Origin: an uncultured Gammaproteobacteria bacterium | GTDB taxonomy: Bacteria > Patescibacteriota > Patescibacteriia > Patescibacteriales > UBA12465 | Direction: 5' to 3' | DNA: 59,373 bases | Assembly: GCA_964652745.1 (NCBI GenBank) | Contig: CAZZBQ010000001.1 | Span: 16,029 to 75,401, forward strand | Shown here: positions 22,772 to 52,520 of the stretch, one piece after another | Layout: each line of letters starts with the position of its first letter | How positions within the stretch are numbered: position 1 is the stretch's first letter | The notes under the pieces: generated by a model | Database searches by the model: none | What the model saw: only the letters and a program-made list of their open reading frames with translations | Told to the model about the DNA's origin: nothing | Position numbers and translations under genes: made by a program

Positions 22772-25435
22772 ATGTTGAAAAGAAAAAAGATAATTTTCGG
22801 CTTTTTTTTGGCATTAGTCGCCTTATTAGTCGCCAATATTTCTCAGGCGCAAGATTTTGGCGTTGACTCCATTGAAAGTACGATTGCTTTATCAAACAGC
22901 GACCCTCGAGCTATCGTTGGACGCATTATTCAGATTGTTCTAAGTTTGCTCGGCGTTATTACTCTTGGACTCATGATTTATGCTGGATTTCTTTGGATGA
23001 CATCGGGTGGCGAAGAGGAAAAAATACGAAGTGCGAAAAATATTTTAAAGAATGCAATTATTGGTTTAGTAATTATTCTCTCCTCTTGGGCAATAACAAC
23101 TTTTCTTCTTTCTAAATTGATGGGGGCTATTTCTGGGAATGGTTCAGATTTACCTAGTGGTAGTATTAGAGAAAATTTTAGTGTTGGCTTGGGGGCTATA
23201 GGGTCTTGTTCGGTACAAGATGTTTATCCGGAAAATAATCAAAAAGACGTTCCACGCAACACTTCTATTATTCTGACTTTTAAAGAAGAGATTGATTTAT
23301 CATCAGCTTGTGTTGATACTTCTGGTTCGGCCTGTGCTTGTGATAATGGCGCCTGCGCTCTTATTAATCCAAATAGTATTAGAATATATAAACAAGATTT
23401 GAATGATGCTTGCACCTCTTCTTGCCCTAGCCCTAATTCTAATGTTACTGACGTTTCGGTTGCCGTGTCAGCCGACAAGAGAACTGTAATACTTTCCCCG
23501 CTTAGTTATTTAGGAACCGCTGAAAACAACACAGACTACATAGTGAAAATTACTTCTGATTTTAAAAAAGCTGATGGCACTTCTATGTTTAGCACCTGTA
23601 GTGCTAATGAACTTATCTGGACTTTTGAAATTGGCTCTCGTTTAGATTTAACGCCGCCGCAAGTAGTTTCTAAATTTTTATTTCCTTTGCCCGATAACGC
23701 CAAAGATGTAGTTACTACCAGTGTTTCAGCTGCTAACGCTACAGCAGAAATTTTTGTAAATAGTTGTCCTAAAATATATAAGCCGGCGGCAGTAAACAAT
23801 GTTTCTCCTGAGGCGGAGGTTATTTTGAATTACCATGGAGTTATTAATCGCTTTATTGTTTCAGTGCCCGCAGACGAACCTAATCGTGCACAGCTTTTTA
23901 ATCTCAATACCAGCGCCTTATTAGGGGTGGCTGATTTTGATGCTGACAATAAAGTTATTTTTGATGGATATTTTAGTCTTAAAGTTGATAGTCATGAAGC
24001 CGGTAATTCGTGGGAGGTTGAGATAACTCCCGAACAGCTCGCTGATACCCTTACGGTTGGTAATATTAAATATTCTTTTGCGTCTACCGGAGAGAATAAT
24101 AACATTATTGTTAGAGAGGGTACTTGTAATGTTGATAATCAAGCCATGGATATTCAGGCTAAATTAAGTGGGCATCCTGATATTAATATTTCTCGTACGG
24201 GTAGCCGCGTTTCTTTAGAGGCTAAAGTTTCTGGTAGCGTTGCTAATAGTTTAATACTTAGCACAAGCAATTCTAGTGCTTTAGGGCTCACGGCTTTTTC
24301 TGGCGGGGCTGATGAAAAAATTTCTTATGTTATTAATGATAAGCGAGACGTTGCAATGAATGCGGTTGTTAAGTTTACTTTTAATGAACCAATGAACCCG
24401 GTTACCTTATCTGGTTCGGCTGCTGAAGTTTCTCCTTATTTGCGCTTAATTAATGCGGCTGGTGGAAATTCGTCAGGAGCAGCTTGTTCGGTAAATTCAG
24501 AGTGCCTTTCTTATAAGTGTGACGGTGGCACGTGTGTTGGTAATTATTTGAATGGACATTTCGCTATTTCTAATGGTTATAAGACAGTAGAGTTTATTTC
24601 TGATAATGAATGTGGAATTAATGGTTGTGGTGAAAAAATATATTGCTTGCCATCAAATAGTAACTTAGCTTTAGAGGTAAAAGCAGCTGGGCTAAAAACT
24701 TGCGCGAGCGATCAAGATTGTTCAGCTTCTAGTCCATATACATCGTGTGCCATGACTCCGCTTGGTTACCGTACCTGCCAAGATGCCGGTCAGCGTAATT
24801 ATCCCTTGGCTGATATTATTGCTATGAATGGCGTTACTGATACAGCATTTAATTCTTTGGACGGAAATAGAGATGCTTTAGCCGATGGCCCAATTTCTTA
24901 TTTTAATGAAAATAATGGGATCATTAGCAATCGTGATAGTTATCGTTTTTCATTTTTTGTTAATGATCAGAAAGAATTATCTTCGCCGCGTATAACCTCG
25001 ATTACTCCAGTCAATGGACAAACTGACATTACCACTTTAACCGATCCAGTGGAGATAACTTTTAATACCTTGATTATGTCCAGTACGCTGAAATCGGGTA
25101 GCACTGTTTTAGACGGCGCCCAGGGGCCAGTTGAACATAAATTTGTAAATTTAAAGAGCGCGGCTGCTAGTCCGCTTGGGTACTGGATATTATCAGAGGA
25201 TAAGGATGTTTCGCCTTTAGATGGCGTGACTGATTTAACGGTTGCCAGCATTAAGCATTCTGTATTTTCAGAATCTCTTTCCTATATTGCTCAGACTGGG
25301 TCGGGATTAAAAGATGTTTATCAGAATTGTTTTAAACCAAGTTCAGGACCTAGTTGTGAGGCAACTTGGGATAATCCATCTTGTTGTTTCGGGTTACCTT
25401 CTAATAATTTAGATGAAAATGGCAACTGCCAATAA
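22772..25435 (+). CDS. Giant surface protein 1: signal peptide, VirB2/TrbC-like pilin hairpin, Big_5/SbsA-like Ig domains and Cys-rich C-terminal region
   Basis: 887 aa. Signal ...VANISQAQ. Two hydrophobic helices flank TSGGEEEKI. Segments such as VQDVYPENNQKDVPRNTSIILTFKEEID look like Big_5 domains. About 26 Cys by hand count. Confidence 0.85.
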   Translation: MLKRKKIIFGFFLALVALLVANISQAQDFGVDSIESTIALSNSDPRAIVGRIIQIVLSLLGVITLGLMIYAGFLWMTSGGEEEKIRSAKNILKNAIIGLVIILSSWAITTFLLSKLMGAISGNGSDLPSGSIRENFSVGLGAIGSCSVQDVYPENNQKDVPRNTSIILTFKEEIDLSSACVDTSGSACACDNGACALINPNSIRIYKQDLNDACTSSCPSPNSNVTDVSVAVSADKRTVILSPLSYLGTAENNTDYIVKITSDFKKADGTSMFSTCSANELIWTFEIGSRLDLTPPQVVSKFLFPLPDNAKDVVTTSVSAANATAEIFVNSCPKIYKPAAVNNVSPEAEVILNYHGVINRFIVSVPADEPNRAQLFNLNTSALLGVADFDADNKVIFDGYFSLKVDSHEAGNSWEVEITPEQLADTLTVGNIKYSFASTGENNNIIVREGTCNVDNQAMDIQAKLSGHPDINISRTGSRVSLEAKVSGSVANSLILSTSNSSALGLTAFSGGADEKISYVINDKRDVAMNAVVKFTFNEPMNPVTLSGSAAEVSPYLRLINAAGGNSSGAACSVNSECLSYKCDGGTCVGNYLNGHFAISNGYKTVEFISDNECGINGCGEKIYCLPSNSNLALEVKAAGLKTCASDQDCSASSPYTSCAMTPLGYRTCQDAGQRNYPLADIIAMNGVTDTAFNSLDGNRDALADGPISYFNENNGIISNRDSYRFSFFVNDQKELSSPRITSITPVNGQTDITTLTDPVEITFNTLIMSSTLKSGSTVLDGAQGPVEHKFVNLKSAAASPLGYWILSEDKDVSPLDGVTDLTVASIKHSVFSESLSYIAQTGSGLKDVYQNCFKPSSGPSCEATWDNPSCCFGLPSNNLDENGNCQ
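22853..23125 (+). other. VirB2/TrbC-like pilin hairpin module (copy 1)
   Basis: aa 28-118: DPRAIVGRIIQIVLSLLGVITLGLMIYAGFLWMTSGGEEEKIRSAKNILKNAIIGLVIILSSWAITTFLL, i.e. helix, short polar loop, helix after a signal peptide. Confidence 0.65.
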
Positions 25436-25444
25436 TATAAATTT

Positions 25445-28400
25445 GTGTCTAAGAAAATATTTAAACAACTCGCCTCTTTAGTAGTAGTTCTGGGAGGAAT
25501 TTTTGCTTTCCGTTTAGTTTTTGCTCAGACTTTTGGGGTGGATGAAGTATCTTCTGGGTTAGGAGGCTCTCTTTCTGAAAGCGATCCGCGTGCTATTTTT
25601 ACGCGGATTATTAATGTTACTCTTGGTCTTCTGGGTGTTATTGCGCTAGGCCTTATTATTTATGCCGGTTTTTTGTGGATGACTTCTGGGGGCGAAGAGG
25701 AAAAGATATCCAAGGCTAAAAAGTTGTTAGTCAGTGCGGTTATTGGCTTAGGTATAATTCTTTCTTCTTGGGCGATTGCTTCATTTGTTTTGGATAGATT
25801 AAGTGATGCTACTAATGGTACAAATGGTGACAGTGGTTGCATTGATGGTACGACACGGTCTTGCGGTTGTAATGGGTCAATGACTTGTATTTCTGGTTCT
25901 TGGAGTGGTTGTGTTGGCTCGGACTGCTCTAGCTATTCGGCGGAACAATATTGCGACTCCAATTCTATTTTAGGCGGTTGCCAGGCTAGTGATAGCATCT
26001 GCTCTCCTCAGGATTACTGTGCTACTGATTGTACTTGCCAACCTAAGGGGGGGGCAGGTGATTCTTGTGATGCTGACAGCGATACGCCAACTTGTGATGC
26101 TAACAATAGTCTTTGTTCTGAATTTTTAACTTGTAATCTAGATACCTGTACTTGTTCGGGGCCGCCAGTCATTACTGGAATTAGTCCGGAAGGAGGATTT
26201 TGTCAAGAAAATATAAATAAATCTTGCCAACAAGATTCTGACTGTAATACTGTCTGTAATCAAGCTGCTCCTAATGGTGCCGTTGATAATTTTTTAACAA
26301 TTTTTGGTAGAAGTTTTGGTGAATATGATCCAGCTTCTAGTCAAGTTATATTTTTAGGAGGCAATCGTTTGGGGCGCAATCCTTCAGATATTAATCCAAT
26401 TTGTATAGACTCTTGGAGTGATAAACAAATAATTATTGCCATCCCAAGTGGAGTTAGTAGTGGTGGAATTAAAGTTATTAGACAAGACGGCCAAGAAGAT
26501 TCTACTAATAATGACTATGGTCCTATAATTGCTGATTTTGTCGCCAACACAATAGTGCGCCCAGGTTTGTGCCGTCTTACTCCAGAAATTGGAGGTTTGG
26601 GTACGGCCGCTACCTACCAAGGCAACAGTCTTTATGCCGGTAGAGCATATTTTGGTAACTACCAAACAAATGTTCAGGCTCTTGATTCTAGCTTTAGTCA
26701 TCCTAGCGGTTTATCTGGCACAGCCGCCGTTCCTAATATTAGGTCAGGCGAAGCTACTAGTTTCGTAATTAGCACTTTAGGCGGAAATCAAGAAAGAAGT
26801 AATTATTTATATTTTGATAAAGAAGCCGACCCTAAAGATGGTCCTTTTATAGTTTCATTTTCGCCAACAACTGGAAGATCAGGGCAATACGTTACTATTA
26901 CTGGTAGCGGATTTGGTGGTGCACGTGGTAATTCAAAAGTTTATTTTGGTGGCGCTGAAGCTGATTATTCTTTCCCGCCGGTTTGTGCCAGTTCTGTTTG
27001 GAGCGATAATCAGATAATTGTGAAGGTACCGGAAGCAGCCGCTAATGGCTATAATTATATTCGTGTAGAATTAGCTAGTGGCGTAATAGATACTAGTCAA
27101 TTAAATCCTAATTCATTTAACGTTGATAGTAGTTTATCTTTGAAGACAAGTTTGTGTAAGATTGATCCTGCTCAAGGAGCAGCTTCTACTCCTGTAAAAT
27201 TGTATGGTGAATATTTTGGCCCAACCGGGCAAGCTGGTTTAGTTCAGTTTAGTGTTAACAAAAATATTTCCGGTGTTATTAATCAGGAAAATGGAGCTGA
27301 TATTATTACCGCTTCTGTTCCCGAGGGAGCAGTTACTGGCCCGGTAAAGGTAGTTAAAAATAATGAATGGGGCAATGATTTAAATTTTGAAGTTGGTAGC
27401 TGCGCTGGTAATGATAGTTGCCCTGGCAGTCAGGTTTGTTGCCCAGGAAATACTTATAAGAAAGGGCGCTGTGTGGCCAGTCTTAATGATTGTTTAATTG
27501 ATATTCCTAATTCCGTTTTTGAATGGAATTTTAGCACTGGCTATACTCAGAGAGATATCGTAGATCCAACTGAAAGTTGTTCCACGCTAGCCGATTACGC
27601 CGGTGCTTGTCAAGTAGATTCTTTCTGCCCTAATACAACCGGAGTTTGCTCGCCTTATGCGGGTAATAGTAAAAAAGTAGTAGGTAGTTGTGATTATTCT
27701 TGTGCTTCTGTGACTGGTTGTGACGCCTTCCAATCATCTTGCTTTTACGACGCTTCAATTAATAAGTGTGTTAAGTCAGGTGCCGACGGTTTATGTAGTT
27801 TATCAGAATCTAGAACATTTAGTTTGGGTGAACAAACTATTCAAGCCACCGTTACTTGTAACCAAGATGGTAATTGGCAATTTACCACACTTACCTCTTG
27901 TCCCAGTGGTTGGACAAAGGGAATAAATAATATTTGTACAGACGAAAGTTCTGTTTGCAGTTTATGTAAAGATGGCTTGACTTGTGAAAGAGTTGGGTCT
28001 GATGGTCGTTGTGTTTCTCAGGGAGTTTGTCCAACTGGCTCATTGTGTGAAGATAATCCCGATATGGCGGCTGCCGATAGATGTATTGCTTATGATTTGC
28101 CTAGTTGTGATTGCTGCTGTCGGATTGGTAATAGCGCACAAGATTGTTGCGCTCCTTTAGAGTGTTCTGGCACCTGTGGAACTGATCAGGCAGATGATGG
28201 TGCTGGTTTAGGACAGTGTTCAGGTTGCGCCAATGTTGGTAGCACCCAAGCAGAACATGACGCGGCTTGTAATTGTTCAGGCAAGAGTGGACAATATTGC
28301 AGTATTACTTCGGAAAATCCTCAAGGGGTGTGTACTGATTGTACTGGGCTGCAAACACAATCAGATTGTGCTGATCACAGCGCGGCCTGTTGTTTTGATG

Positions 28401-45280: not shown

Positions 45281-46477
45281 ATGGCTGAAGTAAAACCAGA
45301 AATAGAGACCTTCGCTAAGATTAAAGTGGTTGGCGTTGGTGGCGGCGGTAATTCCGCCCTGAATCGTATGATAGACAGTGGCGTTAAAGGCGTTGGTTTT
45401 GTGGCTGTTAATACTGATATTCAGGCTTTACATCATAATAAAGCTGGAGAAAAAATCCATATCGGTAAAGCGGTTACTCGCGGCTTAGGGGCTGGTATGA
45501 ACCCAGACCTAGGTAAAGCGGCTGCCGAAGAAACCGAGAATGAATTGAAAGAATGCCTTAAGGGTTGTGATATGGTTTTCGTCACCTGTGGGTTGGGTGG
45601 TGGCACCGGTACTGGTGCTTCGCCAATTGTTGCCAAAATTGCTAAAGAACTGGGAGCTTTAACTGTGGCTGTTGTTACTAAACCTTTTATGTTCGAAGGT
45701 GGACAGCGTAAGAATGTGGCCGATCGCGGTTTTGCTGAGCTAGCTGATAAGGTTGATGCAATTATTACTATTTCTAATGATAAGTTATTGCAAGTTATTG
45801 ATAAAAAAACCTCACTTCTTGAGGCTTTTAAGATTGCCGATGATGTATTGCGCCAGGGAGTACAAGGCATCGCTGAAATTATCACCGTCCCTGGCATTAT
45901 TAATGCTGACTTTGCCGACGTTAAGACAGTTATGTCTAATGCTGGATCGGCTCTGATGGGCATTGGCGTGGCTTCAGGTGAGAATAAAGCAGTTGAGGCA
46001 GCTAAGCAGGCAATTAACTCTAATTTGCTTGATATGTCCATTGATGGGGCTAGGGGCATCGTCTTTACGGTTACTGGTGGTCCAGAATTAAGCATGTCCG
46101 AAGTTAATGAAGCGGCTAAGATTATTACTGCGGCCGCTGATGAAGAGGCTAAGATTATTTTTGGTGCCGTAATTGATGAAAAACTAAAAGATCAGATTAA
46201 GATCACGGTTGTTGCAACTGGTTTTGATAGCCGTAACCAGAATAAAAAAGCAGAAACAGTAAAGCCAGCCTATACTCCAAATTCATTTATTGCTGAAAAA
46301 GAAACCGAAAAAGAAGATTTAGCACGTGAAGATAGAAATAAAACTAAGTTTTCTTCAGTTTTTAAGAATTTACCAGTTAAGCCAGCGGTGGAAAACCGCA
46401 AGGCCGATCAAAGTTTGCCTAGCGATGAGGATGATGATTTAAGCGTCCCCGCTTTTATTAGAAAGAAAATGGGGTAA
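45281..46477 (+). CDS. ftsZ: Cell division GTPase FtsZ
   Basis: KVVGVGGGGNSALNRM, the tubulin signature GLGGGTGTGASP, NTDIQAL, and the C-terminal peptide DDLSVPAFIRKK. Confidence 0.98.
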   Translation: MAEVKPEIETFAKIKVVGVGGGGNSALNRMIDSGVKGVGFVAVNTDIQALHHNKAGEKIHIGKAVTRGLGAGMNPDLGKAAAEETENELKECLKGCDMVFVTCGLGGGTGTGASPIVAKIAKELGALTVAVVTKPFMFEGGQRKNVADRGFAELADKVDAIITISNDKLLQVIDKKTSLLEAFKIADDVLRQGVQGIAEIITVPGIINADFADVKTVMSNAGSALMGIGVASGENKAVEAAKQAINSNLLDMSIDGARGIVFTVTGGPELSMSEVNEAAKIITAAADEEAKIIFGAVIDEKLKDQIKITVVATGFDSRNQNKKAETVKPAYTPNSFIAEKETEKEDLAREDRNKTKFSSVFKNLPVKPAVENRKADQSLPSDEDDDLSVPAFIRKKMG

Positions 46478-46528
46478 AATTCATCAGAATTAAGTTTAAA
46501 GAATAGTAATTTAAACTATTGATTTTCT

Positions 46529-46556
46529 ACCACCCCACTTTGGGGTGGTTTTTTGT
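46529..46556 (+). terminator. Rho-independent terminator after ftsZ
   Basis: ACCACCCC / GGGGTGGT stem with a short loop, then TTTTTTGTTTTTT. Confidence 0.85.
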
Positions 46557-46565
46557 TTTTTAAGT

Positions 46566-46585
46566 ATTGTGGATAAGTTCACAAT
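46566..46585. promoter_or_regulatory. 20-bp palindrome ATTGTG-N8-CACAAT (core TGTGG-N6-TCACA), candidate CRP/FNR-family operator upstream of the nrd promoter
   Basis: 6-bp perfect arms. The core matches the CRP-type consensus TGTGA-N6-TCACA at 9 of 10 positions. Its centre is about 75 nt upstream of the predicted nrd transcription start. Confidence 0.3.
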
Positions 46586-46615
46586 TTGCTTATAATTATC
46601 TTAAAACTAGCTGAA

Positions 46616-46644
46616 TTGACCCATATCTAAAGATTTGTTAAAAT
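46616..46644 (+). promoter_or_regulatory. Promoter of the nrdR-nrdD operon
   Basis: TTGACC (46616-46621), 17-bp spacer, extended -10 TGtTAAAAT (46636-46644). Confidence 0.65.
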
Positions 46645-46652
46645 AGACTTAG

Positions 46653-46668
46653 ACACAATATTTAGTGG
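46653..46668. promoter_or_regulatory. NrdR box 1
   Basis: ACACAATATTTAGTGG matches the published NrdR-box consensus acaCwAtATaTwGtgt at about 14 of 16 positions. It starts 9 nt after the -10, so it overlaps the predicted start site. Confidence 0.6.
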
Positions 46669-46685
46669 CCAATTAAGATAAGAGT

Positions 46686-46698
46686 CCACAAAATGTGG
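46686..46698. promoter_or_regulatory. NrdR box 2 (weaker)
   Basis: CCACAAAATGTGG is a palindrome whose centre is about 31.5 bp from the centre of box 1, the spacing expected for tandem NrdR boxes. Only about 11 of 16 positions match the consensus. Confidence 0.45.
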
Positions 46699-46724
46699 TT
46701 TTTCCTAGGAATATTAAATAATTT

Positions 46725-47186
46725 ATGAAGTGTCCAATCTGTTATTACCCCGATACTAAGGTGGTCGATTCGCGTGTTGCCACTGATGGTTTATCTATTC
46801 GCCGCCGTCGCGAGTGTTTAAAATGCTCTTTTCGCTTCTCAACTTATGAAGAAATTGAATTATTAGATCTCGTAATAGTAAAAAGGGACGGTCGTCGTGA
46901 ATCTTACAGTCGTGAAAAGTTGATTAGCGGCTTAAAGAAGTCTTGTGAGAAGCGCCCAATTACTGAAGATAGATTCCGTCGCTTAGTAAATGCTATCGAA
47001 CGTGATTTACAGCGTTTAAAAAAAACAGAAATAACTTCTCGCCAGATTGGCCAAGCAGTTATGAAAAATTTGAAGAAGTTAGACATGATTGCCTATATCC
47101 GTTATGCCTCGGTTTATGAATCATTCAAGGATGCTCAAGAATTTAGGAAAGAGCTTAATAAACTGATTAGTGAAAAAAATAAATAA
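46725..47186 (+). CDS. nrdR: Transcriptional repressor NrdR
   Basis: MKCPICYYPDTKVVDSRVATDGLSIRRRRECLKCSFRFSTYE is the zinc ribbon, followed by an ATP-cone. Confidence 0.96.
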   Translation: MKCPICYYPDTKVVDSRVATDGLSIRRRRECLKCSFRFSTYEEIELLDLVIVKRDGRRESYSREKLISGLKKSCEKRPITEDRFRRLVNAIERDLQRLKKTEITSRQIGQAVMKNLKKLDMIAYIRYASVYESFKDAQEFRKELNKLISEKNK

Positions 47187-47200
47187 TTTAAAAGACACCT

Positions 47201-49255
47201 ATGTCCGAAACCATTAGCAAGATAATTAAGAGATCTGGCGATATCGTCGATTTCAACCAAGACAAAATTGCTCGTGCTATCTATAAGGCTGCTGAAGCAG
47301 CCGGAATAGATGATAAACACTTAGCTAAAAAGCTAACTGATCAGGTAGTAATGGCAATTAATAAGAAGTTCCACAAGAATAGTATTCCTGCCGTTGAAGA
47401 AGTACAGGATATTGTTGAAGAGGTGTTAATTGAAAATGGACAAGTTAAAACTGCTAAGGCCTACATTCTTTATCGCGACCAGCACCGACAATTAAGAGAT
47501 ATTAGTTCGGCTACAGCTGATGAGAAGCTGATGGAAGATTATTTAGGTAAGGCTGATTGGCGCTTAAAAGAGAATAGCAACATGAGTTTTTCTGTTCAGG
47601 GCCTGAATAACTACATTGCCTCTGCTATCTCGGCTCGTTACTGGCTTAATAAGCTGTATCCGGAAAATATTCGTAAGGCCCATGTTGACGGTGATATACA
47701 TATTCATGATCTTGGTCTGCTTGCTCCTTACTGCTGTGGCTGGGATTTAAAAGATATTTTAGTAAGAGGTTTTAGGGGGGTTAGTGAGAAGGTCCAGAGT
47801 AACCCACCTAAGCATTTTAGAAGCGCCTTGGGTCAGATTATTAATTTCTTTTATACTCTTCAGGGTGAGGCTGCTGGAGCCCAGGCTTTCGCTAATTTTG
47901 ATACTTACCTTGCCCCATTTATCCGCTATGATGGTTTGGATTATAAAGAAGTTAAGCAAGGCTTACAGGAGTTTATGTTTAACATCAATGTGCCGACTAG
48001 AGTAGGTTTTCAAACTCCTTTCACAAACGTTACATTAGATGTTACTCCATCTCCGATGATTGGCGAAGAGAGTGTTATTATCGGCGGCCAAATTATGCCA
48101 GAGAAATATAAGGACTTTCAGAAGGAGATGGATATGTTTAATCAAGCCTTTGCTGAAGTTATGCTTGAGGGCGACTCCACGGGACGCGTGTTTGGTTTCC
48201 CAATTCCAACCTATTGTATTGATAAAGAATTTGACTGGAATCGTGAAAGCTTAAAACCAGCTTGGGAGATGACGGCTAAATATGGTATTCCTTACTTTTC
48301 TAACTTTGTAAATTCTGACATGAATCGCGATGATGCACGTTCAATGTGCTGTCGCCTAAGATTAGATAACCGAGAATTGCGCAAGCGCGGCGGTGGACTA
48401 TTTGGCGCTAATCCAATGACCGGTTCTTTAGGCGTGGTTACAATTAATTTGGCAAGATTGGGTTATTTATCTAAAAGTGCTGATGAATTTAAAAATAGAC
48501 TAGTTGCTTTAATGGAAATAGCGAAGGAAAGTCTAGAAATTAAACGTAAGGTTATTGACCAATTTACTGAAGATCGTCTGTACCCTTACTCAATGTATTA
48601 TCTAGAAAGCATTAAAGAGAGATTTGGTTCTTATTGGCGCAACCATTTTTCCACTATTGGCATTAATGGAATGAATGAAGCAGTTTTAAATTTAATGGGT
48701 AAAGATATCACTACTCCCGAGGGTCACGCCTTTGCTGCAGAAATTTTAGATTTTATGCGGGAAAAATTAATGGATTTTCAGAATGAGACCAATAATCTTT
48801 ATAATTTAGAAGCTACTCCGGGCGAAGGTGCAACTTATCGCTTTGCCAAAAAAGATCAACAGATGTACCCGGGTATAATTTGTGCTAATACAGAGGCGGT
48901 TAAAGAGAGGGGTGCAGATCCTTATTATACTAATTCTTCTCACTTACATGTAAATTACACTGATGATATTTTTTCTGCTTTGGATTTACAGGATGATTTA
49001 CAAACCAGATATACTGGCGGCACGGTACTCCATGGTTACTTAGGGGAAAAATTGCCAGACGGTGAATCAGCTAAAAAGTTAGTGAAAAGTATTGTTGAAA
49101 ATTATCGTTTACCGTATTTTACGATTACACCAACCTTTTCTATTTGTCCTAAGCACGGTTATTTATCAGGTGAGCATAAATACTGCCCAAAATGTGACGA
49201 GGAAATAGGTTATAAGGATACTGTTGAGGAAATCAGAGAAGCTAACCAAAATTAA
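47201..49255 (+). CDS. nrdD: Anaerobic (class III) ribonucleoside-triphosphate reductase, large polypeptide lacking the glycyl-radical segment
   Basis: N-terminal ATP-cone, NrdD core (e.g. CCRLRLD, RYTGGTVLHGYLGE) and Zn site CPKHG...CPKC. The ORF then stops 19 aa later with no RVxG(Y/W) glycyl-radical motif. Confidence 0.93.
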   Translation: MSETISKIIKRSGDIVDFNQDKIARAIYKAAEAAGIDDKHLAKKLTDQVVMAINKKFHKNSIPAVEEVQDIVEEVLIENGQVKTAKAYILYRDQHRQLRDISSATADEKLMEDYLGKADWRLKENSNMSFSVQGLNNYIASAISARYWLNKLYPENIRKAHVDGDIHIHDLGLLAPYCCGWDLKDILVRGFRGVSEKVQSNPPKHFRSALGQIINFFYTLQGEAAGAQAFANFDTYLAPFIRYDGLDYKEVKQGLQEFMFNINVPTRVGFQTPFTNVTLDVTPSPMIGEESVIIGGQIMPEKYKDFQKEMDMFNQAFAEVMLEGDSTGRVFGFPIPTYCIDKEFDWNRESLKPAWEMTAKYGIPYFSNFVNSDMNRDDARSMCCRLRLDNRELRKRGGGLFGANPMTGSLGVVTINLARLGYLSKSADEFKNRLVALMEIAKESLEIKRKVIDQFTEDRLYPYSMYYLESIKERFGSYWRNHFSTIGINGMNEAVLNLMGKDITTPEGHAFAAEILDFMREKLMDFQNETNNLYNLEATPGEGATYRFAKKDQQMYPGIICANTEAVKERGADPYYTNSSHLHVNYTDDIFSALDLQDDLQTRYTGGTVLHGYLGEKLPDGESAKKLVKSIVENYRLPYFTITPTFSICPKHGYLSGEHKYCPKCDEEIGYKDTVEEIREANQN

Positions 49256-49287
49256 TATTTTATAATTTCGTTGGTTAATATTACAAG

Positions 49288-49316
49288 TTGTAATTTTGCA
49301 ATATTTAATTTATAAT
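49288..49316 (+). promoter_or_regulatory. Candidate internal promoter for the glycyl-radical mini-cistron and nrdG
   Basis: TTGTAA (49288-49293), 17-bp spacer, TATAAT (49311-49316), inside the 117-nt AT-rich spacer after the nrdD stop. Confidence 0.5.
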
Positions 49317-49330
49317 TTATATAGCTATCT

Positions 49331-49357
49331 CTTGAAATGTTGTTTTAACATTTCAGG
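49331..49357 (+). promoter_or_regulatory. 5' UTR hairpin abutting the SD of the mini-cistron
   Basis: 11-bp stem CTTGAAATGTT / AACATTTCAGG (one G-U pair) with loop GTTTT. The 3' arm overlaps the first two G of GGGAGG (49356-49361). No T-run follows, so it is not a canonical terminator. Confidence 0.5.
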
Positions 49358-49372
49358 GAGGCAAATAAGAAT

Positions 49373-49513
49373 ATGAGTCCCATCCAGACCCAAAGACAAG
49401 AATGTATCGTTTACAGCCGTGTTGTTGGTTGGTTGACACCAGTGAAGAATTATAATCCTGGTAAAGCTTCAGAATATAAGGATCGTAAAACATTTAAGGT
49501 CTGCAATGATTAA
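49373..49513 (+). CDS. 46-aa glycyl-radical segment of NrdD encoded as a separate cistron
   Basis: MSPIQTQRQECIVYSRVVGWLTPVKNYNPGKASEYKDRKTFKVCND carries the NrdD C-terminal signature (YSRVVGW..PV..(W/Y)NxGK..E(F/Y)..R). SD GGGAGG lies 11 nt upstream. It is in the same frame as nrdD but separated by 4 stops. It is below the ORF-track size cutoff. Confidence 0.8.
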   Translation: MSPIQTQRQECIVYSRVVGWLTPVKNYNPGKASEYKDRKTFKVCND

Positions 49514-49528
49514 TTAACGGGAGAACCT

Positions 49529-50254
49529 ATGATAATCGGTGGTTTAGAAAAATTGTCTTTATTAGACTACCCCGATCATCTCGCCGCTATCGTCTTTACC
49601 CAAGGTTGCAACTTTCGTTGCCACTTCTGCTACAACCCAATGCTTGTCCTGCCCCGAAAGGGAGAGGATAAAAAAAATAATAAAGAAAAAGGTTTTTCTC
49701 CGCTTTCCACTGAAGACCTTTTTCTTTTTTTAAGGGAAAGACATGGCCGTTTAGATGGCGTGGTAATAACTGGCGGGGAGCCGACGCTCCATGAAGATTT
49801 GCCAGATTTCATTAAGCAGATTAAAGCAATCGGCTATGATGTTAAGTTAGATACAAACGGCACCAATCCTAAGATGCTAAGTGTTTTGTTAGAAGCGGGC
49901 TTATTGGATTATATTGCTATGGATTTAAAGGCGCCTGAACATAAATATGAGGAAACGGTAGGCGTAAAAACTGACTACAATAATCTTAAAAAAAGTGTTA
50001 AGATGATAATTAAGAGCGGTTTGCCGCATGAATTTAGAACAACAGTTGTGCCTGGTTTGTTGGAAAAAGAGGATTTTAAAACTATGGGCGAGTCTATTAA
50101 AGGCGCGCAGAAATGGTATTTACAAACCTTTAAATCAGATACTGATTTAGTTGATATGGAATACTATAGACAAAGGCCTTATACTAGCCAAGAGATGAAA
50201 GAGTTGGCCGAGGTTGGCAAGAAGGCGGCCGGTGTTTGCGAAGTGAGATCTTAA
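49529..50254 (+). CDS. nrdG: Anaerobic ribonucleotide reductase activating protein (radical SAM)
   Basis: CNFRCHFCYNP (CxxxCxxC), VVITGGEPTL and KLDTNGTNP. SD GGGAGA lies 4 nt upstream. Confidence 0.92.
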   Translation: MIIGGLEKLSLLDYPDHLAAIVFTQGCNFRCHFCYNPMLVLPRKGEDKKNNKEKGFSPLSTEDLFLFLRERHGRLDGVVITGGEPTLHEDLPDFIKQIKAIGYDVKLDTNGTNPKMLSVLLEAGLLDYIAMDLKAPEHKYEETVGVKTDYNNLKKSVKMIIKSGLPHEFRTTVVPGLLEKEDFKTMGESIKGAQKWYLQTFKSDTDLVDMEYYRQRPYTSQEMKELAEVGKKAAGVCEVRS

Positions 50255-50265
50255 TTTTTGAATAT

Positions 50266-50616
50266 ATGCTAAAAAGAAGCGAAGAAGTTGGCAGTACTGA
50301 ACAAATGGATAGCCAAGTTGGAAGAGATGTGCGCCAATCAGTTTTAAGTACGACTGAGGCAATGCTGGTCATCATGAAGAATCAGGAAGCGATGACCAAG
50401 GAAATTTTAAAATCCGTTCGCTTTATTAAAAGTTATTATTTCTGGAAATCAGCTTTTAGTATTTTAAAATACCTTGTAATAGCTGGTATTGTGATTCTAG
50501 GCATTGTTTCTTGGGATAGCATTATGGACTTTATTAATACTGGAATGAATAGTTACATTAGCACAAAAATTCCTAGTAATATTGACGCGGCAACTATAAA
50601 TACGTTTCTTAGATAA
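50266..50616 (+). CDS. Hypothetical single-pass membrane protein
   Basis: Trimmed to ATG 50266 (MLKRSEEV). One TM (ILKYLVIAGIVILGIVSW). No family recognised. Confidence 0.55.
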   Translation: MLKRSEEVGSTEQMDSQVGRDVRQSVLSTTEAMLVIMKNQEAMTKEILKSVRFIKSYYFWKSAFSILKYLVIAGIVILGIVSWDSIMDFINTGMNSYISTKIPSNIDAATINTFLR

Positions 50617-50627
50617 TTATTAGTTTT

Positions 50628-52520
50628 ATGGCTGAAAGTATAACCGTTTTTGCCCAAACGAATTATCGTAATGAACTGAAGAAGTTCGGAATTAAGACTG
50701 ACGACCGCCGCCGCCATATGTATTTGATTGGAAAAACTGGTATGGGCAAGTCAACAGTCCTTGAGAACATGATTGTTGACGATATTAGAGCCGGTTACGG
50801 AGTAGCCGTTGTCGATCCGCATGGTGATTTAGCAGAAAAAATTATTGAATATATTCCAACTAATCGCGTGAAGGATGTGGTTTATTTTAATCCCTCAGAT
50901 ATTAATCATCCGATCGCTTTTAATGTCGTAGAGCAAGTTGAATCTCATTTGAGCCATTTAGTCGCTTCAGGTTTAATTGGTGTTTTTCAGAAATTATGGG
51001 CCGATTCTTGGGGGCCTCGTTTGGAATACATTTTACGTAATGCGATTTTAGCAATTTTAGATTTTCCCGGCTCAACCTTGCTCGGCGTTGTTCGTATGCT
51101 GTCTGATAAAGGTTACCGTAAGCGCGTTACTGCTAATATTAAAGACCCGGTTGTTAAAGCTTTCTGGGAGAAAGAGTTTTCTGGTTATGCTGATAAGTTT
51201 GCTTCCGAAGCAGTTTCTCCTATTCAAAATAAAGTTGGTCAGTTCTTATCAAGTTCATTGATGCGTAATATTATTGGCCAGGTTAAATCGGCTATTGATA
51301 TTCGCGATATCATGGATAATGGCAAGATTTTAATTATGAATCTTTCCAAGGGAAGAATTGGCGAAGATAATTCTGCTTTGTTAGGCGCGATGATGATTAC
51401 CAAAATTCAGTTAGCAGCCATGAGCCGCGTTGATTTGCCGGAAAATGACAGGCGTGATTTTTATTTGTATATTGATGAATTTCAAAATTTCTCTACTGAT
51501 AGTTTTGCTAATATTTTATCAGAAGCCAGAAAATATCGTTTAAATTTAATTTTAGCTCATCAGTATATTGAACAATTAACAGAAAAAGTTAAGCCAGCCG
51601 TTTTTGGTAATGTTGGCACATTGGTTGTTTTCCGAGTTGGCGCCGCTGATGCTGAGGAATTAGTTAAAGAATTTACTCCAACTTTTACTGAAGAAGATAT
51701 TGTTAATCTACCTAAGTATGAAATGTATCTAAAACTAATGATTGATGGCGTTGCTTCTTCACCGTTTTCCGCGCTTGGTTTACCGCCTTTACGTGCCGAT
51801 GAAAAAACAAATAATACAGAGAAGGTAATTGAATATTCTCGGGAGAAGTATGCAACCCCACGAGAGCTAGTTGAAGAGCGCATTATGCGGTGGCATGATA
51901 GTTATGGTGAAGATGAAAGAAAAAAATCTCCAGCGGCTGAATATGCTCAACCCAACGCGCAACCGCCCTATCAACAAAAAGTTTATCGCCCGCCAGTTAA
52001 TCAGGCGCCAGTGAAAACTACTGCACCAGTTGTTCTTCCAGTGGTCCCAGTTACTCCTGTTTTAGCAAAATCTAGTCTTCCTGCGGATAATTATCAAGTT
52101 AATAGTTCTGGTTATGATGCGATTTGTTCTGGCTGTGGTGCGCATACTAAAACTGTTTTTGTCCCTGATGGAATTCGTCCGGTATATTGCCGTGATTGTT
52201 TAAGCAAGAAAAAAGAAGAAAAACGCATTGAAGCGGAAATGAGAAAACAGGCCAAGGAAATTGAACGTAAGCGGCTAGTAGAAATTACTGCCGAAGAAAC
52301 AATGGTCAAGAATTCATCGCCTGCTTTATCTTTATCAGATTTAAGTAAGTTGGCGCCGGTTGATTTTCGGGGCAGAACTATAAAAAACAAACTAACTCCG
52401 CGGCTGCAAGTCAGTCCTGAGCTGAGTAAAACACAGAAGACTGCCCCAGTTAATAATATTAATGCTGTTTCGGCCGCTAAAGAACAAAATCTTGACGAGA
52501 ATGAGGATATTTTTCTTTGA
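50628..52520 (+). CDS. Soluble VirD4/TraD/HerA-superfamily P-loop ATPase with Pro/Gln-rich linker and C-terminal CxxC...CxxC zinc ribbon
   Basis: Walker A GKTGMGKST and Walker B FYLYIDEFQNF with no N-terminal TM. C-terminus CSGCGAHTKTVFVPDGIRPVYCRDC is followed by a Lys/Glu-rich tail. Confidence 0.8.
   Translation: MAESITVFAQTNYRNELKKFGIKTDDRRRHMYLIGKTGMGKSTVLENMIVDDIRAGYGVAVVDPHGDLAEKIIEYIPTNRVKDVVYFNPSDINHPIAFNVVEQVESHLSHLVASGLIGVFQKLWADSWGPRLEYILRNAILAILDFPGSTLLGVVRMLSDKGYRKRVTANIKDPVVKAFWEKEFSGYADKFASEAVSPIQNKVGQFLSSSLMRNIIGQVKSAIDIRDIMDNGKILIMNLSKGRIGEDNSALLGAMMITKIQLAAMSRVDLPENDRRDFYLYIDEFQNFSTDSFANILSEARKYRLNLILAHQYIEQLTEKVKPAVFGNVGTLVVFRVGAADAEELVKEFTPTFTEEDIVNLPKYEMYLKLMIDGVASSPFSALGLPPLRADEKTNNTEKVIEYSREKYATPRELVEERIMRWHDSYGEDERKKSPAAEYAQPNAQPPYQQKVYRPPVNQAPVKTTAPVVLPVVPVTPVLAKSSLPADNYQVNSSGYDAICSGCGAHTKTVFVPDGIRPVYCRDCLSKKKEEKRIEAEMRKQAKEIERKRLVEITAEETMVKNSSPALSLSDLSKLAPVDFRGRTIKNKLTPRLQVSPELSKTQKTAPVNNINAVSAAKEQNLDENEDIFL

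What the first reader, a model, noticed from the sequence alone, without database searches (positions are those of the whole stretch)
47201..49513. Split class III ribonucleotide reductase: glycyl-radical motif on a separate in-frame 46-codon cistron
Seen in sequence: the 684-aa NrdD ORF has the ATP-cone, the core and the Zn site (CPKHG...CPKC) but stops 19 aa after CPKC without any glycyl-radical motif. After 117 AT-rich nt containing three further in-frame stops (four in all, counting the nrdD stop), a 46-codon ORF (49373-49513) in the same reading frame encodes ...ECIVYSRVVGWLTPVKNYNPGKASEYKDRKTF. This is the NrdD C-terminal glycyl-radical signature. The spacer carries a good promoter-like element (TTGTAA-17-TATAAT, 49288-49316). 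It also has an 11-bp hairpin ending at the SD, and one of the very few strong SDs in the window (GGGAGG). Established knowledge: in canonical NrdD the radical Gly lies about 15-20 residues after the second CxxC on the same chain, and stand-alone glycyl-radical spare-part proteins (GrcA/YfiD) are known for pyruvate formate-lyase. Inference: the radical domain here may be supplied in trans and may be separately regulated or replaceable after oxygen damage. I am not aware of a described two-cistron NrdD, though I cannot search to confirm that.
Basis: partly seen in the sequence, partly recalled or inferred. Interest (0 to 1): 0.72.

Follow-up and report, generated by a model that had tools for sequence, protein, structure and literature searches.

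The report
Two-gene anaerobic ribonucleotide reductase, detachable radical peptide
In this bacterium, and in at least 76 related species, the anaerobic enzyme that makes DNA building blocks carries its oxygen-sensitive radical glycine on a separate 46-residue protein with its own promoter, and phages carry copies of that mini-gene, an arrangement I found described nowhere.

Summary
nrdD (47201-49255, 684 aa) has the ATP-cone, the core and the zinc site, and stops 19 residues after CPKC with no glycyl-radical motif. A 46-codon ORF (49373-49513) supplies exactly the missing end of the Pfam NRDD profile (1-530 versus 530-562 of 562). nrdG follows.

It is not an error, a pseudogene or a recoding site.
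- All informative loci among 80 species-level genomes of Patescibacteria (CPR) relatives show the same split, and none is fused.
- Spacers run from 4 to 249 nt in all three frames, so the in-frame layout here is coincidence.
- The small ORF is under strong purifying selection.
- A TTGTAA-N17-TATAAT element is conserved inside spacers that otherwise cannot be aligned.
- The mini-gene also occurs unlinked to nrdD, upstream of a truncated nrdD in one viral contig, and alone in many phage contigs.

Best explanation: an obligate two-subunit class III reductase in which a separately transcribed peptide carries the radical glycine. The peptide is probably activated by NrdG and cheaply replaced after oxygen cleavage. 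That last step is inference.

I found no description in the searchable literature. Reviews from 2021 and 2026 say spare-part radical proteins are known only for pyruvate formate-lyase. This is a new variant of a known kind, with interest about 0.74.

The parts
46616..46644 (+). Promoter-like site upstream of nrdR (TTGACC-17-TAAAAT with TG), just after the ftsZ terminator (46529-46549)
   Evidence: This is a consensus match only. It is the likely start of the nrdR-nrdD transcript (inference).
46653..46698 (+). Two NrdR-box-like palindromes (ACACAATATTTAGTGG at 46653-46668, CCACAAAATGTGG at 46686-46698), centres about 31 bp apart
   Evidence: Read from the sequence. The resemblance to the NrdR-box consensus is from memory. 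A CAC-N7-9-GTG pattern occurs upstream of nrdR in 23 of 71 relatives against 22 of 810 random windows. No such pattern occurs in the nrdD-to-small-ORF spacer.
46725..47186 (+). nrdR (153 aa), transcriptional repressor of nrd genes
   Evidence: Pfam Zn_ribbon_NrdR 6.4e-20 and ATP-cone 3.1e-20. Same position in relatives.
47201..49255 (+). nrdD large subunit (684 aa): ATP-cone, NxN flap (KENSNM), barrel with the MCCR finger loop, and zinc site. No glycyl-radical motif.
   Evidence: PF13597 positions 1-530 of 562, E 1.8e-183. NF006126 1036 bits against a cut-off of 548. Sequence.
49145..49195 (+). Zinc-ribbon motif CPKH-x9-CPKC (residues 649-665), the last canonical NrdD element on the large chain
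   Evidence: It aligns with CPSH...CPKC of the fused relative P0425.
49196..49252 (+). Lineage-specific tail of the large subunit (DEEIGYKDTVEEIREANQN). Its first six residues are conserved.
   Evidence: In 81 relatives: D1 81/81, E3 81/81, G5 77/81, Y/F6 69/81. The rest varies, 9-55 aa in total.
49256..49372 (+). 117-nt AT-rich spacer. No Rfam family and no terminator on the + strand.
   Evidence: The spacer is 4-249 nt in relatives and cannot be aligned outside the promoter element.
49288..49316 (+). Internal promoter-like element TTGTAA-N17-TATAAT for the small ORF, and presumably nrdG
   Evidence: It is identical at 12 of 12 positions in 19 of 76 species and at 11 of 12 in 8 more. Shuffles gave 0 of 380 and 12 of 380. 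The flanks are not conserved.
49324..49362 (+). Stem-loop at the predicted 5' end of the small-ORF transcript. Its 3' arm includes the SD GGGAGG (49356-49361).
   Evidence: -16.7 kcal/mol, z -2.07. L007 keeps the stem through compensatory changes. All 12 relatives with leaders of 40 nt or more have a 5'-terminal hairpin, mean z -2.9.
49373..49513 (+). Small subunit gene (46 aa) carrying the glycyl-radical loop. The radical Gly19 codon is GGT at 49427-49429.
   Evidence: PF13597 positions 530-562 of 562. 136 stand-alone homologues. pN/pS about 0.2. Invariant residues C11, R16, G19, P23, N28, K31, E34, R38.
49529..50254 (+). nrdG activase (241 aa, radical SAM), 15 nt after the small ORF
   Evidence: TIGR02495 NrdG2, 213 bits against a cut-off of 131. 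PF04055 3.5e-27.

Best explanation
This is an obligate two-polypeptide class III (anaerobic) ribonucleotide reductase. The large chain of 684 aa keeps everything up to and including the zinc ribbon. A separately translated 46-aa protein carries the RVVG(W/Y) radical loop and the C-terminal tail. In ordinary NrdD these follow the second CxxC directly on the same chain.

The operon is nrdR-nrdD(large)-small-nrdG. The small gene, probably together with nrdG, also has its own sigma-70-type promoter in the spacer. That transcript is either almost leaderless or begins with a 5' stem-loop.

Proposed mechanism (inferred):
- NrdG abstracts hydrogen from Gly19 of the small protein.
- The Gly loop sits in the barrel of the large subunit next to the MCCR finger loop, as the covalently attached loop does in fused enzymes, and starts each turnover.
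- Oxygen cleaves the chain at the glycyl radical. That damage would destroy only a 46-residue peptide, which can be exchanged, instead of a 730-residue enzyme.
- The peptide is therefore a consumable radical cartridge, and its supply can be set independently of the NrdR-controlled large subunit. Phages that carry only the mini-gene would exploit the same modularity.
For: Shown:
- The two ORFs are exactly complementary on the NRDD profile. BLASTP against a fused relative shows a 26-residue insertion between CPKC and R-x-E and nothing else.
- The split is conserved. 76 non-redundant species-level loci were scored as split by the script, and 3 more by tblastn (motif variant YSRVNG). One locus is masked by N and 3 run off the contig end. 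None is fused. Independent metagenome assemblies show it too.
- Translation is separate. Spacers are 4-249 nt in all three frames (34:23:19). The ATG and an 'MSP' N-terminus are conserved. One IMG/VR contig has the order small ORF then truncated NrdD (...CPKCEAEG*), which excludes readthrough there.
- Selection acts on the small ORF. pN/pS is about 0.2 overall. Window against L011 gives pS 0.62 and pN 0.
- The promoter element is conserved, and 5' hairpins are present in 12 of 12 long leaders.
- The mini-gene is autonomous. All 120 listed hits of the word-indexed search are 41-65 aa. 147 of the best 150 cluster representatives in the exhaustive search are 127 aa or shorter, and 899 hits have E <= 1e-3. 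One copy lies beside rsmH, away from nrdD and nrdG. IMG/VR holds 284 loci; 78 of the top 80 have no nrdD or nrdG within 4 kb. One of these lies between tail-fibre and endolysin genes.
- The large subunit and NrdG score far above their family cut-offs.

From the literature:
- The GRD consists of the Zn site, then the buried Gly loop, then a tail, and it is highly mobile (PMC11226230).
- Oxygen cleaves GREs at the radical glycine. YfiD, once activated by PFL-AE, replaces the lost part of PFL (PMC13450708, PMC8683613).
Against: - There is no direct evidence that the two proteins associate, that NrdG activates the peptide, or that the enzyme is active.
- Both AlphaFold2 runs of the concatenated chains gave low confidence for residues 645-730, so there is no structural support.
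- Within the window the promoter match is at chance level, and no transcript data were available.
- The zinc ribbon stays on the large chain and the Gly loop is on the small one. From memory, the zinc site matters for radical generation in E. coli NrdD. NrdG would therefore have to recognise a non-covalent pair, which is untested.
- The oxygen-repair rationale is a just-so argument. The split could be a neutral fission fixed in a small-genome lineage.
- I could not check whole genomes for a second RNR.
Confidence: 0.8

Rival explanations
1. Recoding: the ribosome reads through or bypasses the spacer (stop-codon readthrough, hopping or frameshift), or the RNA is spliced, so that one fused NrdD chain is made.
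For: In this window the two ORFs share a frame. In-frame spacers are somewhat over-represented: 34 of 76 against 25 expected, chi-square about 4.8, p about 0.09, and the species are not independent.
Against: - There are four stops of two kinds in the window.
- 42 of 76 relatives are out of frame, including the 98%-identical L007.
- Spacers of 4-249 nt show no conserved sequence apart from a promoter.
- The ATG, the MSP start and the promoter are conserved.
- Gene order is permuted in L155, and copies occur unlinked and in phages.
- No Rfam intron or other RNA family matches. The tails are too short for a split intein.
Confidence: 0.02
2. Decay or artefact: a nonsense-disrupted nrdD pseudogene, or an assembly or sequencing error.
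For: A truncated enzyme followed by its missing end is what a fresh nonsense or insertion mutation would look like.
Against: - The same architecture occurs in 76 or more species from independent assemblies and sequencing projects.
- NrdD is 69-98% identical across them, and the small ORF has pN/pS about 0.2 with saturated synonymous sites.
- The first residues of the large-subunit tail are conserved.
Confidence: 0.02
3. True spare part or regulator: the cells also have an intact fused NrdD or another RNR elsewhere. The small protein then rescues or modulates that enzyme, as GrcA does for PFL, while the truncated large chain has another role or none.
For: - GrcA/YfiD and T4 Y06I are precedents.
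- Many phage contigs carry the mini-gene without nrdD nearby.
- Some stand-alone versions include their own zinc ribbon (P0255, P0270, P0310, ANMV-1). These look more like complete spare GRDs.
Against: - In the CPR operon the small gene always sits between a Gly-less nrdD and nrdG.
- The large chain is under strong constraint and keeps its catalytic motifs.
- No fused copy appeared among the 80 best genome loci.
- No other RNR was found among the large ORFs of the window.
- CPR genomes are about 1 Mb and rarely carry redundant enzymes (general knowledge).
Confidence: 0.08
4. Neutral gene fission: a functional two-piece enzyme whose split brings no benefit. It became fixed by drift in a reduced genome, and the promoter serves mainly nrdG.
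For: - Functional split RNRs without a known benefit exist: P. aeruginosa NrdJa/NrdJb (cited) and, from memory, phage Aeh1 NrdA.
- The large-subunit tail and the spacer are highly variable.
Against: - The mini-gene has spread to unlinked loci and to phages as a stand-alone module. That implies the peptide has value on its own.
- Dedicated expression signals are conserved directly upstream of it.
Confidence: 0.25

Closest known systems
Canonical single-chain class III RNR NrdD with NrdG (E. coli, phage T4, T. maritima, P. copri; NCBIfam NF006126 / TIGR02487)
   Same: ATP-cone, NxN flap, ten-stranded barrel, MCCR finger loop, zinc site, RVxG(Y/W) radical loop, adjacent radical-SAM activase and NrdR control. 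Every element is present.
   Different: The chain is cut immediately after the second CxxC. The Gly loop and tail are a separate gene product with its own start codon and promoter. The large chain gains a 9-55-aa tail and the small one about 9 N-terminal residues.
GrcA/YfiD of E. coli and Y06I of phage T4 (autonomous glycyl radical cofactors for pyruvate formate-lyase)
   Same: A small autonomous protein carries a glycyl-radical loop and works in trans with a large barrel subunit that lacks a usable glycine. Phage-encoded versions exist.
   Different: GrcA is a homologue of the PFL C-terminus, 127 aa with a disordered N-terminal half. It backs up an intact PflB only after oxygen cleavage. Here the protein is of NrdD type (PF13597, not the PFL-type domain) and 46 aa long. 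Its partner never has its own glycine, so it is obligate. Reviews state that spare parts are known only for formate lyases.
Split class II RNR NrdJa/NrdJb of Pseudomonas aeruginosa (Crona et al. 2015, cited in PMC9669993)
   Same: An RNR catalytic chain is encoded as two adjacent ORFs, with the C-terminal functional module on the second one.
   Different: That enzyme is class II and B12-dependent, with no glycyl radical. From memory, the second piece is a much larger polypeptide that carries the C-terminal redox-active part.
Genes-in-pieces NrdA of Aeromonas phage Aeh1 (from memory: Friedrich et al. 2007 PNAS)
   Same: A functional RNR assembled from two polypeptides after a gene was interrupted.
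   Different: That enzyme is class I and is split by insertion of a homing-endonuclease gene. Here the spacer holds no mobile-element ORF, being 4-249 nt with a promoter only.
ANMV-1 archaeal virus 'nrdD' (AJP62049.1, 144 aa)
   Same: A stand-alone viral protein with the NrdD-type motif CEMYSRIVGYLRPVNQWNKGK.
   Different: It includes its own CxxC...CxxC zinc ribbon, so it is a whole GRD. The paper treated it simply as an oxygen-sensitive RNR (PMC4372165).

Membership tests
Class III ribonucleotide reductase catalytic subunit NrdD (PF13597 / TIGR02487 / NF006126) | Match to the NRDD core above the curated cut-off | tested here: met
   PF13597 611.7 bits (cut-off 26.2). NF006126 1036 bits (cut-off 548). 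TIGR02487 518.5 bits (cut-off 326).
Class III ribonucleotide reductase catalytic subunit NrdD (PF13597 / TIGR02487 / NF006126) | Finger-loop cysteine motif (MGCR or MCCR) and NxN flap | tested here: met
   SMCCRLRL and KENSNM are read in the translation. The motif definitions come from PMC9669993 and PMC11226230.
Class III ribonucleotide reductase catalytic subunit NrdD (PF13597 / TIGR02487 / NF006126) | C-terminal zinc site (two Cys pairs) | tested here: met
   CPKH-x9-CPKC at residues 649-665. The pattern is C-x-x-H...C-x-x-C, as in the fused relatives P0425 and P0416. Metal binding itself was not tested.
Class III ribonucleotide reductase catalytic subunit NrdD (PF13597 / TIGR02487 / NF006126) | Radical glycine (RVxGY-type loop) on the same polypeptide, a few residues after the zinc site | tested here: not met
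   The large ORF stops 19 aa after CPKC, and its tail has only a conserved EIGY without the Arg. The motif YSRVVGW lies on the separate 46-aa ORF. The two ORFs together meet the feature.
Class III ribonucleotide reductase catalytic subunit NrdD (PF13597 / TIGR02487 / NF006126) | Dedicated radical-SAM activase NrdG encoded nearby | tested here: met
   TIGR02495 NrdG2, 213 bits against 131. The gene starts 15 nt after the small ORF.
Class III ribonucleotide reductase catalytic subunit NrdD (PF13597 / TIGR02487 / NF006126) | Glycyl radical formed and NTP reduced | not testable with these tools
   Needs anaerobic biochemistry and EPR.
[quoted passage not shown] | Small stand-alone protein with a glycyl-radical loop | tested here: met
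   46 aa with its own ATG, promoter element and selection. Hundreds of stand-alone homologues exist.
[quoted passage not shown] | [quoted passage not shown] | tested here: not met
   The only Pfam and NCBIfam matches are NrdD families. No PFL-type glycyl-radical family is reported at E <= 1.
[quoted passage not shown] | Backs up a parent enzyme that has its own radical glycine | tested here: not met
   The adjacent parent chain lacks the glycine in all informative relatives. The rest of the genome could not be searched.
[quoted passage not shown] | Radical installed by the parent enzyme's activase, then docking into the large subunit | not testable with these tools
   Two structure predictions were uninformative for this region.

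The most novel reading that the evidence does not exclude
NrdD-type glycyl-radical mini-proteins may form a large, overlooked family of exchangeable radical cartridges. This would be the first such family outside pyruvate formate-lyase. In Patescibacteria they are the obligate radical-bearing subunit of a two-piece RNR, expressed from their own promoter and replaced after oxygen damage. In other lineages they are unlinked genes. Phages carry them, with or without a zinc ribbon, as auxiliary genes that recharge or take over the host's anaerobic dNTP synthesis using the host's large subunit and activase.
Probability: 0.45. Interest if true: 0.85.

Novelty: new variant of a known kind. Interest (0 to 1): 0.74.

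Why it matters
Glycyl radical enzymes are destroyed by oxygen through chain cleavage at the radical glycine. The only known countermeasure is the GrcA/YfiD spare part for pyruvate formate-lyase. Andorfer et al. 2021 (PMC8683613) and a 2026 review (PMC13450708) both state that it is unknown whether other glycyl radical enzymes have such proteins. Here the essential anaerobic ribonucleotide reductase of a large part of the Patescibacteria has the radical loop permanently on a 46-residue protein.

This makes several questions directly testable:
- Can NrdG activate a free peptide?
- Is the zinc ribbon needed in cis?
- Can the Gly loop exchange in and out of the barrel?
- Is radical-subunit turnover a form of oxygen tolerance?

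It also matters for annotation. Pipelines label both pieces 'anaerobic ribonucleoside-triphosphate reductase', and length filters drop the small one. It matters for phage biology too: hundreds of viral contigs carry only the mini-gene, and a published archaeal virus 'nrdD' is just such a fragment. Finally, it suggests an engineering route to a modular, replaceable protein radical cofactor.

Tried and rejected
- AlphaFold2 on the concatenated large and small chains was run twice, with 56-row and 135-row alignments. Mean pLDDT was 58.6 and 63.6, and residues 645-730 stayed below 50, so I drew no inference about docking. The available homologues are too similar (82-85% identity) over the N-terminal half.
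- Rfam on 46400-50400 gave no riboswitch, intron or other family.
- PDB sequence searches with the small ORF alone found nothing. The large chain matches P. copri, T. maritima and T4 NrdD only up to CPKC.
- The promoter and terminator scan in the window alone gave counts at chance level and no + strand terminator in the spacer.
- Stop-codon readthrough or translational bypassing was considered because of the shared frame. It is rejected by the frame statistics and by the permuted gene order.
- A split intein or trans-splicing was considered. The flanking tails are far too short and variable. Inteins do occur in some relatives, but inside the barrel.
- A mobile-element insertion was considered as the origin. 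No spacer holds an ORF.
- I searched for the closest fused relatives. The hits were mostly partial Desulfobacterota sequences of 52-62% identity (alignments A1 and A3). They served to define the break point, but I built no tree, so single versus multiple origin of the split is unresolved.
- A simple NrdR-box pattern was only partly informative.
Full report
**1. What is in the sequence**

The region encodes nrdR (46725-47186), nrdD (47201-49255, 684 aa), a 117-nt AT-rich spacer, a 46-codon ORF (49373-49513) and nrdG (49529-50254). ftsZ lies upstream, followed by a terminator.
- The large ORF ends ...SICPKHGYLSGEHKYCPKC-DEEIGYKDTVEEIREANQN*.
- The small ORF reads MSPIQTQRQECIVYSRVVGWLTPVKNYNPGKASEYKDRKTFKVCND.
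- The Pfam NRDD profile is divided cleanly between them. The large ORF covers positions 1-530 of 562 (E 1.8e-183). The small ORF covers 530-562 of 562 (E 6.7e-7, above the gathering score). NCBIfam agrees, and nrdG is a clear NrdG2.
- The two ORFs share a frame, with four stops between them.
- The window is very poor in Shine-Dalgarno sequences. Only 5 of 39 genes have a match of 4 nt or more.

**2. Where the cut is**

Fused relatives read ...SICPSHGYLTGEQEACPKC-RHETEIYSRVVGYLRPVKQWNNGKQAEYAMRKTFKVA. BLASTP of the window's junction against one of them (P0425) gives one continuous alignment. It has a single 26-residue gap, covering the 19-aa tail of the large chain and the first 7 residues of the small one.

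[quoted passage not shown] The cut therefore lies inside the GRD. The zinc ribbon stays on the large chain, and the Gly loop and tail are on the small protein.

**3. It is real and conserved**

*Small-ORF searches.* A word-indexed search with the small ORF returned 136 proteins. All 120 listed are 41-65 aa, down to about 63% identity, come from many assemblies, and carry PF13597.

*Large-ORF searches.* The large ORF has thousands of relatives. The best 120 are almost all 673-703 aa, the truncated length, and are named Patescibacteria, Falkowbacteria or Saccharimonadales where named at all.

*Species-level survey.* A scan of one genome per GTDB species found more than 591 loci, of which the best 80 were fetched.
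- My script scored 76 non-redundant loci as split, with a truncated nrdD followed by the small ORF. This count includes the window itself and two representative loci from the earlier contig look-ups (L001, L004).
- Three more have the small ORF with the variant YSRVNG.
- One is masked by N exactly there.
- The remainder run off the contig end.
- None is fused.

*Expression in trans.*
- Spacers are 4-249 nt (median 80), and spacer length mod 3 is 34:23:19.
- The closest relative (98% identical NrdD) has a 115-nt spacer out of frame. The in-frame arrangement here is therefore a coincidence.
- Readthrough or bypassing cannot be the general mode of expression.

*Selection.* The small ORF is under purifying selection. 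Synonymous sites are saturated while pN/pS is about 0.2. Against L011, pS is 0.62 and pN is 0. The N-terminus 'MSP' and the ATG are conserved.

**4. Its own expression signals**

Within the window the promoter-like match is no more than chance would give (13 found, 14.5 expected). Across relatives the picture changes.
- The spacers cannot be aligned except for one block, TTGTAATTT...ATTTATAAT.
- TTGTAA-N17-TATAAT is perfect in 19 of 76 species and 11 of 12 in 8 more. Shuffles gave 0 of 380 and 12 of 380. Other sub-clades keep their own AT-rich variants.
- The distance from the -10 element to the ATG falls into two classes. In one it is 8-21 nt, which is near-leaderless and fits the lack of SD in 67 of 76 loci. 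In the other it is 46-79 nt.
- In all 12 long-leader loci tested, the predicted transcript begins with a stable stem-loop (mean z -2.9), with no sequence conservation and with compensatory changes between the window and L007.
- In the window the stem (49324-49362; -16.7 kcal/mol, z -2.07) includes the SD.

I read this as a dedicated, stabilised transcript for the small gene and probably nrdG. This is an inference, because there are no transcript data. NrdR-box-like palindromes lie upstream of nrdR and none lies in the spacer. The small gene may therefore escape NrdR control, which is speculative.

**5. The mini-gene is an autonomous module**

- An exhaustive HMMER search of 1.84 billion cluster representatives gave 899 hits (E <= 1e-3). 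Of the best 150, 147 are 127 aa or shorter.
- The sampled sequences start with Met and share the invariant residues C11, R16, G19, P23, N28, K31, E34 and R38.
- One type (P0253) lies beside mraZ-rsmH, far from any nrdD or nrdG.
- Longer types (P0255, P0270, P0310) carry their own CxxC...CxxC ribbon. One of them lies in a RecT-containing, phage-like contig.
- IMG/VR holds 284 loci. All of the top 80 are ORFs of 40-156 aa, and only two have a large NrdD within 4 kb. I inspected only 4 kb on each side, so the phages may encode nrdD elsewhere.
- L103 carries the mini-gene between tail-fibre and endolysin genes.
- L155 has polA, then the small ORF, then an intein-containing NrdD that ends CPKCEAEG*. 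This is a split enzyme with the small gene first, which is incompatible with any readthrough model.
- In GenBank, the archaeal virus ANMV-1 has a 144-aa 'nrdD' that is only a zinc ribbon plus the Gly motif. The paper took it as evidence for an oxygen-sensitive RNR (PMC4372165).

**6. How it most likely works**

*Shown:* two genes, two translation starts, selection on both, a conserved promoter, and modular spread.

*Inferred from established GRE chemistry:* NrdG installs the radical on Gly19 of the small protein. The loop occupies the barrel next to the MCCR finger loop, as in fused enzymes. Oxygen cleavage at the radical destroys only the peptide.

The GRD of fused NrdD is already highly mobile and must leave the barrel to be activated (PMC11226230). 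PFL-AE activates the free 14-kDa YfiD, which then docks into cleaved PFL (PMC13450708, PMC8683613). Both steps therefore have precedent.

The first six residues of the large-chain tail (D-E-E-x-G-Y/F) are nearly invariant, and so is Cys11 of the peptide. These are candidates for the non-covalent junction. That is a hypothesis.

*Rivals:*
- Recoding, decay and artefact are effectively excluded.
- A GrcA-like role for an intact enzyme elsewhere is unlikely for the operon version. It remains open for the phage and zinc-ribbon versions.
- A selectively neutral fission cannot be excluded, though the independent spread of the module argues against it.

**7. Comparison with what is known**

It works like GrcA/YfiD but is not a member of that family. 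Its homology is to NrdD, not PFL, and its partner has no glycine of its own. It is a class III RNR in every element except the defining same-chain glycine. It parallels the split class II NrdJa/NrdJb only in being a two-ORF RNR.

Searches for a split nrdD, for split class III enzymes, for NrdD with Patescibacteria or CPR, and for spare parts with RNR found no description. Two sources state that spare-part proteins are validated only for PFL, and that whether other GREs have them is open. Subscription-only literature was not searchable, so prior mention cannot be excluded.

**8. Verdict**

This is a real, widely conserved and apparently undescribed two-subunit form of the anaerobic ribonucleotide reductase, with a detachable radical-bearing peptide and phage-borne copies. 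I class it as a new variant of a known kind.
- Confidence in the architecture is about 0.9.
- Confidence in the full explanation, including the trans-docking mechanism, is about 0.8.
- Confidence in the 'consumable cartridge' rationale is about 0.45.
- Interest is 0.74.

Noticed in passing
IMG/VR loci L094-L173 (e.g. L103:3986-4120; L094:4001-4141): 284 viral contigs encode relatives of the small ORF. The top 80 are all stand-alone ORFs of 40-156 aa, and 78 have no nrdD or nrdG within 4 kb. L103 has the mini-gene between tail-fibre and endolysin genes.
   Followed up: partly
L155:3226-6425: A viral contig has polA, then a 49-aa Gly-radical ORF, then a 1015-aa intein-containing NrdD that ends right after the zinc ribbon (CPKCEAEG*). 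This is a split enzyme with the small gene upstream.
   Followed up: partly
L174:3186-3620 (KP703175.1, ANMV-1 virus): The published archaeal virus 'nrdD' is only 144 aa: a CxxC...CxxC ribbon plus the CEMYSRIVGYLRPV motif. It has no barrel, yet the paper cites it as an RNR.
   Followed up: partly
L088:5001-5147, also L089 and L090: A 48-aa homologue (P0253) sits directly after mraZ-rsmH, with no nrdD or nrdG in 5 kb on either side. This is an unlinked copy of the mini-gene.
   Followed up: no
Large-subunit tails in L037-L045, L048, L054, L056, L059, L062, L063, L070, L072-L074, L082: 19 of 81 relatives end the large-chain tail with two Cys in the last six residues (CSTC, CSEC, CQSC, TCC). Half of the small ORFs have a Cys near their C-terminus. 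This recalls the C-terminal redox Cys pairs of class I and II RNRs. The window's tail has none, and its small ORF ends KVCND.
   Followed up: no
L055, L064, L067, L078, L080, L084, L086 (large-subunit C-termini): A sub-group has longer tails (36-55 aa) that end in a conserved ER-x-(I/L)I-x-x-(I/L/M)A motif of unknown role.
   Followed up: no
window 46653-46698: Two NrdR-box-like palindromes lie downstream of the promoter-like site before nrdR. None lies in the nrdD-to-small-ORF spacer.
   Followed up: partly
whole window (39 gene starts): Shine-Dalgarno sequences are almost absent: 5 of 39 genes have a match of 4 nt or more. Several relatives appear to express the small ORF from near-leaderless transcripts.
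   Followed up: partly
window 22772-35037: Three consecutive giant ORFs of 887, 1928 and 1265 aa. The first two have an N-terminal T4SS-pilin-like domain plus Ig-like domains. The third has no Pfam match.
   Followed up: no
window 50236-52520; L001:5917-8123; L004:5917-7959: Synteny after nrdG is conserved: a small ORF with no Pfam match (89-92 aa in relatives), then a TrwB/TraG-like coupling ATPase with a C-terminal treble-clef zinc finger.
   Followed up: no
P0216, P0219, P0227 (1004-1040 aa): Some close relatives of the large subunit carry an intein-sized insertion (PF14890 in P0219).
   Followed up: no
L091:2569-4561: In a Desulfobacterota-like 801-kb contig the fused-type NrdD is called as 462-aa and 186-aa ORFs 43 nt apart. 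186-aa C-terminal ORFs recur in the database. This could be a frameshift or long-read error, a gene-caller artefact, or another split.
   Followed up: no
L072:2800-2910 and record titles of L007-L086: The small ORF of L072 is masked by a run of N exactly over the radical motif. Many contigs that are clearly Patescibacteria-like are titled 'uncultured Gammaproteobacteria bacterium', and single ones 'Planctomycetota' or 'Nanoarchaeia'. These titles look wrong.
   Followed up: no
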